Assembly: GCA_951406725.2 (NCBI GenBank)
Contig: OX597818.1
Coordinates: 112,406,001-112,470,000 of the forward strand
DNA length: 64,000 nucleotides
Direction of reading: 5' to 3'
Source of the DNA: Octopus vulgaris
Lineage: Eukaryota
Shown here: positions 15,121-61,688 of the stretch, piece by piece
How positions within the stretch are numbered: the first letter of the stretch is position 1
Layout of the letters: the number at the start of each line of letters is the position of its first letter
Translations under genes and position numbers: made by a program
The notes under the pieces: generated by a model
What the model was told of the DNA's origin: nothing
What the model saw: the letters and a program-made list of their open reading frames with translations, nothing else
Database searches by the model: none

Positions 15121-15447
15121 GATAAGAAGTTAATGATTGCATTTTATTAACGAATTGGTCATCTTCGATTCTTACAGGCGTTTCAATCGATATTCAATAA
15201 TTTAATGATAAGTTTGCACATAAAATTTACATTTATGTGACATAAGTATAAATGAAAATGAATTGACAGATCCACATATGACATCCGAAGGTATATCTAT
15301 TCTTCTCTGATGAAATTATACTCATGTCACATAAATATAAATTTAATATACAAATTTGTAATTAAATTTCCGAATATAAATTGAAATGGCCGTCGGAGTT
15401 GGAGATGATTAATTTGTTAACAATAAACAATTATTAACTTCATTATC
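15121..15447. repeat. Imperfect inverted repeat (~130 bp arms, roughly 75% identity); probable inverted PLE terminal repeat
   Basis: 15121-15251 is the reverse complement of 15315-15447. Confidence 0.85.
15303..15398 (+). ncRNA. Candidate degenerate type I hammerhead ribozyme
   Basis: CTGATGA (15307-15313), stem II closed by AATT/AATT, GAAA (15383-15386), T-GGCC-G stem III, GTC cleavage triplet (15392-15394), stem I TTCT/GGAG. Confidence 0.55.
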
Positions 15448-15655
15448 TTTATTGCTTTTCTTCTTTCAAATGGATACATACTATATACTTACTATATACC
15501 TATTGCTGTAAGGAATGTCCTCAAAAATACTCGGTGTTGAGCCACTATATCGTTGGACGCACCCATCCCTTCACGAGGTTAACATATCCTCTAATTAATT
15601 ATATATATATATATATATATATATATATATATATATATATATATATATATATATA

Positions 15656-16196
15656 CTAGCATTAAATACCCGTTGTTGCCGGGTCATAGTGCTAGTGCAT
15701 GTATATATGTGTATATATATGTGTACATATTACATGTACATCTATATATATACATGTACATCTATATATATACATAAAATGCAAAATACAAAGTTATATC
15801 TTGATATCACTAGAGATAACAATACTCAAAATATATAACAGACTGGAATTGTTAGCTCTTCTTTTTTCTCTACATTGTATACTTTATAGACAATAGTCTT
15901 TTCTTTAATTTAATTTTTTATTATCCATCTGAACTATTCCATTTCTGCACGCTAATTTTATTTTTAATTTATTCCTATTCATGTGAAACCACTTATTCAA
16001 GTTCAAATCATTGATGCAATTTCATACCAATTGCTATTTTTACTTTTGTACGTTACGATTATATTATACTTGCTGATGACACTCCCCGGACCCTAAGTAA
16101 AGCATGTGTAAAATTTCAATGAAATTAGTTGTGTAGTTCTCAAGTTTTAGGGAAACAGACAGACGGACAAACATTCTCAGTTTTATATATATAAAT
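15656..16196 (-). mobile_element. Non-autonomous Helitron
   Basis: Minus-strand 3' end: hairpin acccg..cgggt about 9 nt before CTAG followed by T; 5' end tatatatataaaactgagaatgtttgtccgtctgtctg typical of such elements. Confidence 0.75.
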
Positions 16197-16247
16197 ATAT
16201 ATATAATAGAAATATTAAAATTACTAAGTCTCTCTAAAGGAGATTAA

Positions 16248-16546
16248 TAGTTATCGCCACACTTATATGGCAGTCTTATAAATATAAGACTAAAGCTGTC
16301 GCTGATTAGCTCCAAGAGGCCACCGCATCAAGCTAGCTATTTGACACACAACCTGCGTCCATTATAAACATGTCTGCCGCTGTCTGACTGGCAGGATGAA
16401 GAGGCTGACCTCCCCTGTTCGAAGGTTTATAATGGACGCAGGTTGTGTGTCAAATAGCTAGCTTGAGGCGGTGGCCTCTTGGAGCTAATCAGCGACAGAT
16501 TTAGTCTTATAATTATAAGACTGCCATATAAGTATGGCGATAACTA
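16248..16546. repeat. Near-perfect hairpin, 122 bp arms, 55 nt spacer
   Basis: 16248-16369 vs 16425-16546, about 4 mismatches; abuts (TA)n. Confidence 0.95.
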
Positions 16547-16628
16547 TATATATATATATATATATATATATATATATATATATATATATATATGTATATA
16601 TATATACATATATGTATGTATATATATA

Positions 16629-17515
16629 CAGGGTGCGGCGAATAAATTATCACCTAACTTTCGCGCAAACATGAAGATAGCATTCACATCTCCCATTTTA
16701 TGCGATATATTTACCAAAATTATATAGAAGTATCTTGAAAAGAGTAATTATACTCAATAAAATCGCAATTGGCTTCAAATATGGCCGCCCGACGACGTCG
16801 GAATCTCTTGCAACTCCTTTGGAAGGTCTCTTTGTTACTTTTTTGAATGCTGCCATAATTCTTGCCTTCAGTTCATCTTTGGTGTTACAAGGAGTTTTGC
16901 TGGTCTCTCGCCCAACTGCGACTCACACGTAATAATCATGGGGGTCGCAGTCTGGGATGTTAGGTGGCCAGGTTGTAGTGTTGATGTGGTCGCATAAATT
17001 GCCTGACAGCCATGACTGGATCCTCCTGCATGTGTGGCATGGTGTAGAGTCCTGTTGCGAGACATGGGGTGTTCCAGTAGCCACCCACTTGATTCGGGGC
17101 AGCACAACCTCCTCCAGGCACTTGATATAGGACTCCGTGTTGAGTCTAAGGCCGTGTAGGAAGACGAATGAAGGCGTAACGTTGCTATCAGTAGTGATCA
17201 CTCCAAATAGATTGATGTTGACTGGATATTTGATTTTTATCTTTCCCGGTACATGTTTTGGGGTCACGGCAAGCCAGCGGTTGCTCTGTGTGTTCACCAT
17301 CTGCTCGTATTGAAGCTTCCGGTGCGAATGCCAATCAATACAGCATGTCGTTTCCAAATTTCTGGCAAAGTTAATTGCGTCATGTTGCTGTTTTTCTCAC
17401 AGACAGTGCTTAACGGACCCTACTATATTGTGTAGTCGACAAAATAAAAATAATAACAATGCACATGTGCGAAATTAATGATATAAAATGTCAACAAGGT
17501 ACCCATCGCACCCTG
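16629..17515 (-). mobile_element. Tc1/mariner superfamily element (maT/DD37D-like), internally deleted
   Basis: Termini cagggtgcg / cgcaccctg, TA on left; transposase remnant SNRWLA...QQDSTPCHT...WPPNIPDCDPHDYYV. Confidence 0.85.
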
Positions 17516-17967
17516 AATGTATGCATTCGCTGAGGGAGGTCTTCGGGTGTGAAAGACTAATTGTAGGTTATATTGTAAAACTTTTTTCTATTAATGTATG
17601 GCAAAAATGAATTTTTTAAGTAAGCATAAAAATTAGCTGGGTTTAACAAATTTGAAATTGGATCAAATTTTGAAAAGTATAAAATTTCTGATGCCATCAG
17701 AAAAGCTCCATATCTTCTGCCAGTAATTGTTCCCCATTATATGTAATGTGATTATGTATCGGTTTTCCGCTAAATTATCCAATAGACATTAATTCACTGT
17801 GAAATATATCCGATAGACTTTCTGCTAACATGACTTTCTAGAAATGGCCTCTTACAACACGTATCTAGGGACAGAGAATTTTATGAAGGGTGGGGATACG
17901 AAACCGTAAAAAACTTATTATAAACATACGGACATGCGTTGATATACGTCATTTGTTGTAAGATAAT

Positions 17968-59219: not shown

Positions 59220-59350
59220 TATATATATATATATATATATATATATATATATATATATATATATATATATATATATATATATATATATATATATATATAT
59301 ATATATATATATATATATATATATATATATATTGTATATATATATATATA
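59220..59350. repeat. Long (TA)n
   Basis: Direct read. Confidence 0.95.
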
Positions 59351-59694
59351 TGCATATTATTGAATAGTTTATTCATTTGTATAACAAGAATTTAAATTTA
59401 ATTATCAACACTTATTTAGAAAGAAATTATAACGTGCCTAGAACCAGAATTTTGTATCACACTGCCTGTCAGTATACACACATACACTCTCTCTCACACA
59501 CACACACACATACACACACACACACACATACACACACACACACACACACACACACACTCACACACACACTCATGTATGTATATTGTATATGCGTGTGTCT
59601 GTCTGTGTACTTATATACATACAATGTAAGTGGTGTTCGAAGACATAATTTTAAAATTAATTATGTCTGCTATAGGCACACTTTCTAAAAGTTT

Positions 59695-59860
59695 CTTGAG
59701 GTGGTAGTCGATTTCATGGACCACAGTGCTTAACTTGTGTATAGTTTATCGTCCCCGAAAGGATAAAATGTAAACTCGACATCCACGTCATTTGAGCTCG
59801 GTGCAACCGCGAGAAACCCTACTAAGCTTTTCGTGCAGTATTTTACATTTCTGCCGCTCT
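59695..59860 (-). mobile_element. SINE family A, decayed
   Basis: tttatcgtccccgaaaggataaaatgtaaactcgac. Confidence 0.6.
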
Positions 59861-59959
59861 CACACTGTAATTGCTAGTTTTGTAAAACATCTTCAATCTG
59901 GCAAGAGCTAAATTTCTTTTAATAAATCTTTGTGCCGAGATTTTCGGCGAGATTGCTTA

Positions 59960-60560
59960 TGAGAATATTCTATGGGTCCATCTTTAGCATGGACGATGGC
60001 TGCAGTGAGGGACCGGAATCTTTGACAAACTTACATTAAGTGCTATTCACTTCAACCAAGATAGTCCTTAATTAATATATGGTATTGTTAAGATGTGGAT
60101 TAGTCTCCTTTTCAAAGACGCGCGAAACTTAGTCGTCCATTGATTTAAAATCTGGTAAAAGTGAAGCTACAAATTCGGTGTCATGTGATCGAGAAGATAA
60201 TGGCGCATCCATTGTTGGGATAATTCGGATTTGGGAGAAGCTGCTAATCTTGTTACAGACGTATTCGTTTTAATACGTGCTTCTTCCACTCCAATTTTAA
60301 TAACTCCAGCACATCAACACATCCAACAAGATTTATTTTAAGGCCTTGTTGAAATTAGTGAGGTTGTATGACATTAACTTGATTACACAACAAGTCCTAA
60401 AACCATCAACATTGCTGGAAAATTAATGTGACTTTTCCTGGAGATTTGAGAAAGATCTGCACATAATCGTAATTTCTACCCTTAGATTCTGGGTTGAATA
60501 GTTTTCGTATCAGAGAAGAACCACAGTCAGCCATTTTCGTGACGGTATTTTAAACACATT
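59960..60560 (-). mobile_element. Decayed maT/DD37D-like transposase
   Basis: LWFFSD...FPAMLMVLGLV...QQGLKIN...PDFKSMDD*V...EKETN, collinear with the 16629-17515 transposase. Confidence 0.7.
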
Positions 60561-60996
60561 AGGTAACCGCTTGGTACGGATCAAATGATTATTCTAAAGT
60601 CTGAAGACCTGAATTTGGCCTCTCCTCATCATATACAACTTCTATATCATGTCTTGTGTCTATGTATGTGAACGGGTAAATATAAAAAATAGTTAATGTG
60701 CAAAACTATTTCAATGTCGCATTTAAGAAACTTACCCTATCATTTGTTTTTGACAGAATTTCAGTCAACTATACACTAGCGATCATCGTAGAACGCAGGC
60801 AAGTTCTAGGCATTGTAATAATTACAATGTGTGTAATAATTACAACAAACTGGGGAGCTCTTTGCTAGTAACAGATACAAAATAATCCGAACGCAAAGTA
60901 ATTATGTAAATATTTAAACAATTCATAAAATGCTATCAGTCGTAAAATTCATTAATATAATTGTTAAAATACATACTCATACAACATAGCGTAACC

Positions 60997-61688
60997 AAGT
61001 TTATGGTTTTTGAACATTATCACGCAAGGACTGGAAATCTTCCAAATGATATGTCACCAAAGTAAAGATGCTGCAAAAGAACTATATATATATACGATAT
61101 GGTGTATATTTAAACACATGAGGAACCCACTCAGAGGAATTCAACACGCTAGAAAGAACAGCTAGAATAGCGTGTTGAATTCCTATGAGTGAATTCCTCA
61201 TGTGTTTAAATATACACTATATCGTATGACTAATATATAGTCTTTTGGATTCCATTTTTTTTTGACTAAATTTTTACGCGTTAGACCACTGGAAATGTAA
61301 ATAAATTTTGATTAATTTCCATTTCCCTTTGATATGAGTATATACATATATATATATATATATATATATATATATATATATATATATATATATATATATA
61401 TATATATATATATATATATATATATATATATATATATATATATATATATATATATATATATGTATGTATATGAAGCTATAAAGATGCATATATTTACGAC
61501 GTGCAATGAACCCGCTATAATATGAAAGGTGACGCGCAAACTGAATCGAGTAACATATGCCACCTTTTTGTCTTGAAGCAGAAACTTCCAAACAAGTGCT
61601 TAGTTCTTTTGCAGCATCTTTATTTTGGTGACATATCATTTGGAAGATTTCCAGTTGTTGCGTGATAATGTTCAAAAACCATAAACTT
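60997..61688. repeat. 88-bp inverted duplication bracketing the hairpin and a long (TA)n
   Basis: 60997-61084 is the reverse complement of 61601-61688, about 3 mismatches. Confidence 0.95.
61092..61227. repeat. Hairpin, 60 bp arms, 16 nt spacer
   Basis: 61092-61151 vs 61168-61227, about 4 mismatches. Confidence 0.95.

What the first reader, a model, noticed from the sequence alone, without database searches (positions are those of the whole stretch)
15121..61688. Recurrent fold-back hairpins coupled to inverted duplication of neighbouring DNA: candidate Penelope-linked mechanism
Seen: five sequence-unrelated hairpins (15121-15447, 16248-16546, 32615-32710, 52954-53070, 61092-61227). Three directly abut (TA)n, two come with inverted copies of adjacent non-repetitive-looking DNA, two sit next to Penelope-like termini or RT, and one carries a hammerhead core. 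They lack the short TIR and long internal segment of ordinary MITEs. Established: PLEs often have inverted terminal repeats and hammerhead ribozymes. Inference: abortive PLE integration with template switching or snap-back synthesis at TA tracts leaves palindromes and copies flanking DNA. If transcribed within introns these would form long dsRNA, potential ADAR substrates in a lineage known for extensive editing.
Basis: partly seen in the sequence, partly recalled or inferred. Interest (0 to 1): 0.7.

Follow-up and report, generated by a model that had tools for sequence, protein, structure and literature searches.

The report
Penelope stubs with mirrored host DNA
The five hairpins are real stubs of five repeat families with the known head-to-head shape of Penelope-like jumping genes, and the two mirrored copies of single-copy host DNA beside them are real too, likely made by fold-back copying at the cut TA tract, though such copies are rare and also occur without any element.

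Summary
All five hairpins are real (folding z -5 to -27), and both flank copies are single-copy DNA in this 2.8-Gb genome. Each hairpin belongs to its own repeat family. The families share one shape: two fixed outer ends usually at (TA)n, a one-sided tail, and mostly copy-specific central junctions. That is the published insertion shape of Penelope-like elements (PLEs), not of MITEs. Hairpin 4 is the terminal tail of a young Hydra-type RT/GIY-YIG PLE. Four of five families carry type I hammerheads; no coding partner was found for the other four families. Coupling to flank copies is weaker than proposed: 2 of 151 ordinary stubs carry one, against 4 of 467 TA tracts (p=0.64); symmetric stubs 2 of 11 (p=0.02, post hoc). 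The new detail lies outside the window: at three loci the flank copy sits inside one insertion, capped by a second piece of the same element from its other start site. A similar outcome is published for LINE-1. The window's two cases are ambiguous. ADAR editing is untested. The scan reported the hairpin part before, in this and other genomes.

The parts
15107..15606 (+). Hairpin 1 = family D stub: inverted 5'-truncated arm (15107-15251), sense arm with decayed type I hammerhead (about 15300-15400), tail ending at (TA)28
   Evidence: 961 candidates, 40 scored; descriptor hit in 4 of 15 family loci
16203..16547 (+). Hairpin 2 = family A stub: tail-bearing inverted arm on the left (tail has a deletion of about 21 nt), sense arm starting at the 3' end of the hammerhead and ending at (TA)n; the family also occurs as 365-bp tandem units
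   Evidence: 1844 candidates, 40 scored; 5 of 24 loci
32520..32752 (.). Hairpin 3 = old, low-copy family E stub with a one-sided tail on the left; no hammerhead by descriptor, no coding partner found
   Evidence: 7 candidates; 0 of 6 loci
52768..52890 (+). Single-copy host DNA, left arm of the outer palindrome (likely the original)
52954..53070 (.). Hairpin 4 = symmetric stub of family B: two identical 51-nt copies of the terminal tail of a young Hydra-type PLE around a 15-nt loop bounded by a 5-nt inverted repeat; mirrored microsatellites on both sides
53165..53287 (-). Inverted copy of the left flank (likely the derived arm); its outer end runs into family F through about 17 nt of imperfect similarity
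53271..53336 (-). End fragment of another high-copy PLE-like repeat (family F); elsewhere it follows (TA)n, here the TA tract and first few bases are missing
   Evidence: (loose ends in 4 of 4 runs)
60997..61084 (+). Single-copy host DNA abutting the short TA tract of hairpin 5 (original)
   Evidence: contig of run X1 covers this flank and the hairpin start
61085..61335 (+). Hairpin 5 = family C stub: short inverted arm, sense arm and tail of about 100 nt ending at a long TA tract
   Evidence: 1417 candidates, 40 scored; 2 of 29 loci
61601..61688 (-). 88-nt inverted copy of 60997-61084, starting at the flank/TA junction but lying about 130 nt beyond the far TA tract; 1-3 nt microhomologies

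Best explanation
The hairpins are short, 5'-truncated insertions of several Penelope-like families beside TA microsatellites, likely made when the enzyme cuts both strands and copies its RNA from both DNA ends, and the rare mirrored host DNA likely comes from fold-back synthesis at that same break. Shown: two fixed outer ends per family, a one-sided tail, variable junctions with short overlaps, hammerheads in four families, and a coding parent for family B. From published biochemistry (PAc): both strands are cut and extended, and two RT start sites define the tail. Inferred: each end primes one cDNA, usually one per start site, and the two cDNAs anneal head to head. Inferred for the rare variant: one cDNA folds back on itself, synthesis runs across the TA tract into 30-330 nt of host DNA, and the copy is caught by the second cDNA or by the other broken end. 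Whether the element's RT or host repair makes the copy is not shown. Other flank copies, hairpin 5's among them, may be ordinary break repair at TA tracts.
For: Ends and junctions: 136 of 166 loci have one arm at each fixed end; distinct junctions in 20 of 24 (A), 18 of 20 (C), 18 of 20 (D). Family B: the hairpin-4 family unit runs into the ORF start in 15 of 30 loci found with the RT, and occurs in 22 of 30; the protein resembles RT/GIY-YIG clusters and shows the Hydra motifs. Inverted pieces as short as 11-52 nt at 5' ends (L243, L228, L229) fit priming from the second end. Type I hammerheads in A, B, C, D loci against 0-1 hits in 10 window shuffles. Capped flank copies: L061 (about 330 nt, 2-nt overlap), L180:9357-L181:427 (192 nt identical plus microsatellite, 6-nt overlap), L334 (31 nt, 5-nt overlap) each end in a second piece of the same family from the other start site. 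In L061 and L180-L181 a SINE continues on one side only, and that side is the one a first-strand fold-back predicts. Symmetric stubs carry a flank copy in 2 of 11 against 2 of 151 asymmetric (p=0.023). Published shape: PMC8557442, PMC3846280, PMC11167929.
Against: Ordinary stubs show no excess of flank copies: 2 of 151 against 4 of 467 TA-containing microsatellite blocks, p=0.64 (3 of 467 if one PLE-end case is dropped, p=0.60). My prediction that most symmetric stubs carry copies failed: 9 of 11 do not, and the classes were set after seeing data. At hairpin 4 the junction suggests the right arm is the copy, while the loop orientation predicts the left; this needs a later loop flip or two primings. 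L249 and L026 are asymmetric stubs inside flank palindromes, which one snap-back cannot make. L334 has 64 unexplained nt between copy and stub. Family B junctions recur at one internal palindrome (27 of 42, query-biased), so some stubs might be copied as units. No coding partner was found for A, C, D or E. No empty site was seen.
Confidence: 0.7

Rival explanations
1. Uncoupled: the stubs are ordinary PLE insertions, and all flank copies are made by host repair or replication at TA tracts (snap-back, templated insertion, template switch), before or after the insertion.
For: TA-centred inverted copies without an element (L140:2066-2418, L177:4190-4410, L187:8556-8873) and distant templated inverted insertions (L189:963-2006, L182:9724-L183:64, L149:5356-6381, L151:917-2961) occur in the 1.064-Mb sample. 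Rates at asymmetric stubs equal background. It fits hairpin 5, L249 and L026, and perhaps hairpin 4 (inner arms 51 of 51 identical, outer core 4 mismatches in about 108 nt).
Against: It does not readily explain three copies capped by a second piece of the same family from the other start site, nor that the hairpin-5 and L249 copies begin exactly at the flank/TA junction.
Confidence: 0.3
2. Replication/fusion: the broken end is replicated, the two sister ends are each primed or fused through the element, and the structure is rejoined nearby, so two copies of one flank face each other across the stub.
For: Explains asymmetric stubs inside flank palindromes (L249, 102 nt at 100%; L026) and hairpin 4's polarity problem. 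Described for LINE-1 foldbacks (10.1101/2024.12.14.628481, passages).
Against: Copies here are 30-330 nt, whereas the one LINE-1 foldback example I read has breakpoints about 5.5 kb apart. It does not predict capping by a second cDNA.
Confidence: 0.15
3. The hairpins are MITEs or foldback DNA transposons copied as palindromic units.
For: High copy number, TA targets, palindromic form; five family-B stubs are 100% identical over 195 nt.
Against: Centres differ between copies, ends are asymmetric, the same sequence occurs as single arms and tandem units, carries hammerheads, and in family B is the terminus of an RT/GIY-YIG ORF.
Confidence: 0.03
4. The palindromes are assembly artefacts from fold-back reads.
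For: No contig spans either structure, and 61475-61594 and 53072-53263 were not covered (holes prove nothing).
Against: Arms differ by 3-28%. Contigs of run X1 and of run X5 (another organism label, 12 differences in 391 nt) run from the 88-nt copy into the downstream DNA with 30 and 29 nt on the short side, one to two short of the tool's 31-letter bridging rule. The same shape recurs at over 130 loci.
Confidence: 0.03

Closest known systems
Insertion units of EN+ Penelope-like elements with inverted 5'-truncated pLTR and one-sided tail (PMC8557442, passages; PMC3846280, passages; PMC11167929, parts 1-2 of 4)
   Same: Head-to-head inverted copy, tail at one end, two RT start sites, AT-rich or microsatellite targets, hammerhead in the pLTR.
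   Different: Tails here are about 45-130 nt, not 30-40. The passages read mention no inverted copy of host flank inside an insertion.
Hydra clade of C-terminal EN+ PLEs (PMC8557442 section 11, read)
   Same: Family B's parent has RWR (for RWK), DKT, a CxCX5C linker, CxxC and CxH around the EN's E and N, a canonical hammerhead and (TA)n targets.
   Different: The copy at L137-L138 spans about 7 kb with a long microsatellite-rich 3' region, whereas Hydra elements are described as under 3 kb. No tree was built.
Non-LTR retrozymes (10.64898/2026.07.22.740005, part 1 of 5 read)
   Same: Family A has 365-bp tandem units, each with a type I hammerhead, and no ORF.
   Different: Many copies are single head-to-head stubs; transcription and cleavage are untested; no partner PLE found.
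LINE-1 insertions with inverted duplication or foldback of genomic DNA (10.1101/2024.12.14.628481, passages)
   Same: Inverted copy of flanking DNA at a TPRT break, with 2-bp microhomology.
   Different: There the inverted duplications lie on the reciprocal end, in somatic cells. Here the turn lies inside the element's own cDNA, the copy is capped by a second cDNA, and the events are inherited.
Snap-back / synthesis-dependent microhomology-mediated end joining (PMC5728401, PMC2943611; search listing only, mechanism recalled)
   Same: Templated inverted copies of nearby DNA joined through 1-6 nt overlaps.
   Different: Recalled as usually shorter than the 88-330 nt seen here; no enzyme was identified here.

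Membership tests
EN+ Penelope-like element (family B, hairpin 4) | Single ORF with PLE-type RT and C-terminal GIY-YIG endonuclease | tested here: met
   Atlas feature hits 0.94-0.98 to RVT_1/HTH_animal/GIY-YIG clusters; 34-47% identity by tblastn to local PLE ORFs. Pfam gave no RT or GIY-YIG hit on the pieces, PDB none, NCBIfam only a weak retron RT hit.
EN+ Penelope-like element (family B, hairpin 4) | pLTR that repeats the ORF-proximal 5' end, with an optional tail | tested here: met
   Unit runs into the ORF start in 15 of 30 loci; recurs 4 kb downstream of the ORF; ends at 244-250 and 316-319.
EN+ Penelope-like element (families A, B, C, D) | Type I hammerhead in the repeat unit | tested here: met
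   Descriptor hits in 5 of 24, 6 of 18 (plus 2 unrelated hits), 2 of 29 and 4 of 15 loci; 0-1 in 10 window shuffles. Cleavage untested. No hammerhead among the 150 of 180 Rfam rows shown for the window.
EN+ Penelope-like element (families A, C, D, E) | Linked RT/EN ORF or an autonomous partner sharing the ends | tested here: inconclusive
   None found in the 1.064-Mb sample, the first 116 loci or 30 family-B RT loci; no genome-wide search for partners was run.
EN+ Penelope-like element (families A, B, C, D, E) | Adjacent inverted 5'-truncated copy with tail at one end | tested here: met
   136 of 166 loci of A, B, C, D and a further family G; family E by alignment.
EN+ Penelope-like element (family E, hairpin 3) | Type I hammerhead | tested here: not met
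   0 of 6 loci by descriptor; copies are old and the 5' part is mostly missing.
Hydra clade (family B parent) | RWK and DKT motifs, CxCX5C linker, CxxC and CxH around E and N, (TA)n targets | tested here: met
   Read from translations against section 11 of PMC8557442; RWK appears as RWR.
Hydra clade (family B parent) | Phylogenetic placement within the clade | not tested
   No reference set was at hand; the paper's supplements were not opened.
MITE / foldback DNA transposon | Symmetric terminal inverted repeats around a fixed internal sequence | tested here: not met
   Asymmetric ends in 136 of 166 loci; centres differ between copies.
Non-LTR retrozyme (family A) | Tandem non-coding units each with a type I hammerhead | tested here: met
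   365-bp spacing; two hammerheads in tandem in L020.
Non-LTR retrozyme (family A) | Self-cleaved or circular RNA | not testable with these tools
   No RNA run was laid.

The most novel reading that the evidence does not exclude
Penelope-like elements prime both target ends, one at each of their two start sites; now and then one cDNA snaps back and synthesis runs through the junction, copying up to a few hundred bases of host DNA inside the insertion. These capped copies would be frozen intermediates of the unresolved PLE integration step, and PLE cuts at (TA)n would be a main source of small inherited inverted duplications in this genome, including those with no element left at the centre.
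Probability: 0.35. Interest if true: 0.55.

Novelty: new variant of a known kind. Interest (0 to 1): 0.33.

Why it matters
The hairpins are a known footprint; the practical lesson is that such palindromes should be annotated as PLE stubs, not MITEs. The open question is how PLEs join their second end: PMC8557442 calls these features undefined, and PMC11167929 leaves the steps after priming unvalidated. Flank copies capped by a second cDNA from the other start site would be genomic support for two-ended priming and would give countable predictions (start-site pairing, loop polarity, microhomology). The events are rare (about 1-2% of stubs), and no effect on a host gene or RNA was shown.

Tried and rejected
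Rfam scan of the window: only microsatellite-driven miRNA matches below gathering score and one tRNA-like hit among the 150 rows shown. Pfam, NCBIfam and PDB gave no firm hit on the family-B protein. Pfam on 137 window ORFs of 55 aa or more gave a transposase and a weak RT only, so no host exon was identified; short exons would be missed. No RNA holder was listed for 59620-61330; this says nothing on expression. Contigs laid on 52400-53340 gave no joints and no cover across the palindrome arms; on 61475-62050 no joints and no cover of 61475-61594; no empty site was seen. Pattern searches for symmetric stubs mostly returned asymmetric ones with a variant tail start (6 of 10, 3 of 5, most of 15). 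Three symmetric family-G stubs were found but their flanks were not seen. Loop polarity as a general rule was dropped because hairpin 4 contradicts it. Arms are more alike within than between loci (A 97.7 vs 94.2%, C 95.7 vs 91.0%, D 87.0 vs 85.5%), but the partner arm is the nearest one in only 9 of 26, 5 of 25 and 3 of 25 loci, so arm-from-arm copying is not the rule. Rows dropped before the counts: the four window loci; duplicate loci; 11 loci without an arm pair, 9 with an unclassified end, 4 tandem-continuing family-A loci and L330; flank hits at L100 (85%, two SINE copies), L032, L268, L300, L069, L259 (not adjacent on both sides) were not counted as copies. L180-L181 and L151:4813-6026 were found through their duplication and are left out of the rates. 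Literature searches for a PLE-linked inverted flank copy listed none; others (Penelope, octopus, hammerhead; octopus, inverted repeats, editing) gave nothing on these structures in the listings. The library lacks most subscription journals.
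Full report
Setting. The window is G000:C5:112406001-112470000 in a 2.8-Gb genome rich in TA microsatellites. Earlier notes of the scan call it an octopus genome; I did not test this. I read the five sites, searched the genome with each, fetched 1.0 Mb of further sequence as a background sample (1.064 Mb with the window), and laid public contigs on two stretches.

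Observation. All five hairpins are present and far beyond chance: folding z from -5.3 to -27.2. Their arms are unrelated. The two flank copies are 93% and 97% identical to their partners and are single-copy by genome search, with the tool's caveat that counts are lower bounds. An artefact is unlikely: the arms differ, and contigs of two runs, one under another organism label, pass from the 88-nt copy into downstream DNA with 30 and 29 nt on the short side, just under the tool's bridging rule. Palindromes are common in this genome: 43 at 80% identity or more in 1.064 Mb.

What the hairpins are. Each belongs to its own repeat family: D (hairpin 1, 961 candidates), A (2, 1844), E (3, 7), B (4, 27 with the short query, 216 with a longer one) and C (5, 1417). 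Across 166 loci of A, B, C, D and a further family G, each family has two fixed outer ends, and 136 loci have one arm at each, so one arm carries a tail of about 60-130 nt. The central junction differs between copies (20 of 24 distinct in A, 18 of 20 in C and in D), often with overlaps of a few bases in A and C, and with hot spots at internal palindromes in B (27 of 42) and G. Family E shows the same one-sided tail. A type I hammerhead descriptor hits loci of A, B, C and D but not E, with 0-1 hits in shuffles. For B the parent is in hand: the unit runs into the start of an RT/GIY-YIG ORF in 15 of 30 loci, copies are 97-100% identical in protein among the top 30, and the protein has the Hydra-clade motifs. 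Hairpin 4's arm is the tail of that unit. This matches the published PLE shape: an inverted 5'-truncated copy and a tail at one end (PMC8557442, PMC3846280, passages), with two RT start sites and extension of both strands in vitro (PMC11167929). No coding partner was found for A, C, D or E, so their membership rests on shape and, for three, the ribozyme.

The flank copies: rates. With the window's loci left out, an adjacent inverted flank copy occurs at 2 of 151 asymmetric stubs (L026, L249) and 2 of 11 symmetric ones (L061, L334). The same test on 467 TA-containing microsatellite blocks gives 4 inverted and 1 direct; one of the four is a PLE end. Asymmetric stubs do not differ from background (p=0.64). 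Symmetric stubs do, weakly (p=0.023 against asymmetric, 0.007 against TA blocks), with classes set after the fact. I predicted that most symmetric stubs would carry copies; 9 of 11 do not. The sample also holds TA-centred inverted copies with no element and distant templated inverted insertions, so host repair makes such copies too.

The flank copies: anatomy. Three loci outside the window share one layout: original flank, TA, symmetric stub, TA, inverted flank copy, a 2-6 nt overlap, then a second piece of the same family that begins at the other start site and ends at the far target end (L061; L180:9357-L181:427; L334). The copy is thus inside one insertion. In the first two a SINE continues on one side only, which marks the original, and the loop orientation is the one expected if the first cDNA folded back and synthesis ran into the flank. 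L334 has 64 unexplained bases between copy and stub. L151:4813-6026 is a fourth symmetric stub with a copy of about 315 nt but no cap. L249 and L026 are asymmetric stubs within flank palindromes and need two primings or insertion into an existing palindrome.

The window's two cases. Hairpin 4 is symmetric, with mirrored microsatellites and flank. Its loop is bounded by a 5-nt inverted repeat and reads sense on the top strand, which would make the left arm the copy. But the right arm ends in a family-F terminus that lacks its usual TA tract and first bases and overlaps the flank by about 17 imperfect bases, which points to the right arm as the copy. A later loop flip or two primings would reconcile these; neither is shown. 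Hairpin 5 is an ordinary asymmetric stub. Its 88-nt copy starts at the flank/TA junction but lies about 130 nt beyond the far TA tract with 1-3 nt overlaps, like a templated repair insertion; coupling is plausible and unproven.

Mechanism. Shown: anatomy, families, parent of B, rates. From published work: double-strand cutting and two start sites. Inferred: two-ended priming with head-to-head annealing as the usual route; fold-back with run-through into the flank as a rare route; host repair at TA breaks as a parallel route. The polymerase is unknown. I give 0.7 to this reading as a whole, more for the PLE origin of the stubs and about even odds for fold-back at the window's own two sites.

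Comparison and novelty. The stubs are new members of a known kind, and the scan reached that verdict before on other DNA. Inverted duplication of flank at a TPRT break is published for LINE-1 (10.1101/2024.12.14.628481, passages). I found no report of it for PLEs in four searches, within a library that lacks most subscription journals; supplements were not read. The capped layout is therefore a small new variant. Transcription and editing are untested: no host exon was identified and no RNA run was laid.

Verdict. Observation confirmed; interpretation partly supported; interest 0.33.

Noticed in passing
window 15636-16200: Element between hairpins 1 and 2 with short sub-terminal inverted repeats, a GACA-type repeat and a TA-rich end; looks like a Helentron/HINE-type non-autonomous element (label recalled, not tested).
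   Followed up: no
window 47118-48302: Decayed mariner-type DNA transposon: 37-nt terminal inverted repeats and a Transposase_1 hit.
   Followed up: partly
window 2859-4911: Decayed PLE RT remnants on the + strand (tblastn).
   Followed up: partly
window 44798-45034: Weak RVT_1 hit on the - strand, below Pfam's cut-off; likely a LINE remnant.
   Followed up: no
window 14235-14330 and 53271-53336: Ends of a very high-copy PLE-like repeat (family F) that follows (TA)n elsewhere.
   Followed up: partly
window 56282-56596: A sixth, old palindrome (69%) whose arms match a dispersed SINE-like repeat.
   Followed up: no
window 35613-35685: tRNA-like match (Rfam 30 bits, gathering 29) at the head of a dispersed repeat, probably a SINE.
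   Followed up: no
L147:5647-8445: Family-A units flank a captured stretch with LINE ORF1-like sequence and a SINE, as described for DNA carried between pLTRs in PMC3846280.
   Followed up: partly
L009, L014, L015, L018, L020: The family-A hammerhead has a U3:A8 pair in place of C3:G8 and a palindromic stem III.
   Followed up: partly
L249-L278: Most family-B stubs turn at the same 10-nt palindrome overlapping the hammerhead core, and five are identical over 195 nt: a hot spot, or stubs copied as units.
   Followed up: partly
L189:963-2006; L182:9724-L183:64; L149:5356-6381; L151:917-2961: Inverted copies of 58-219 nt of nearby DNA placed 0.2-1.9 kb from their source, 96-100% identical; one interrupts a family-A arm.
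   Followed up: partly
L125:9652-L126:410: 759-nt palindrome (97%) of DNA not repeated in the sample, with no TA tract or known element at its centre.
   Followed up: no
L137-L138 (G000:C5:112218958-112226165): Near full-length family-B element with a microsatellite-rich 3' region of about 4 kb, which may itself spread TA/TG repeats.
   Followed up: no
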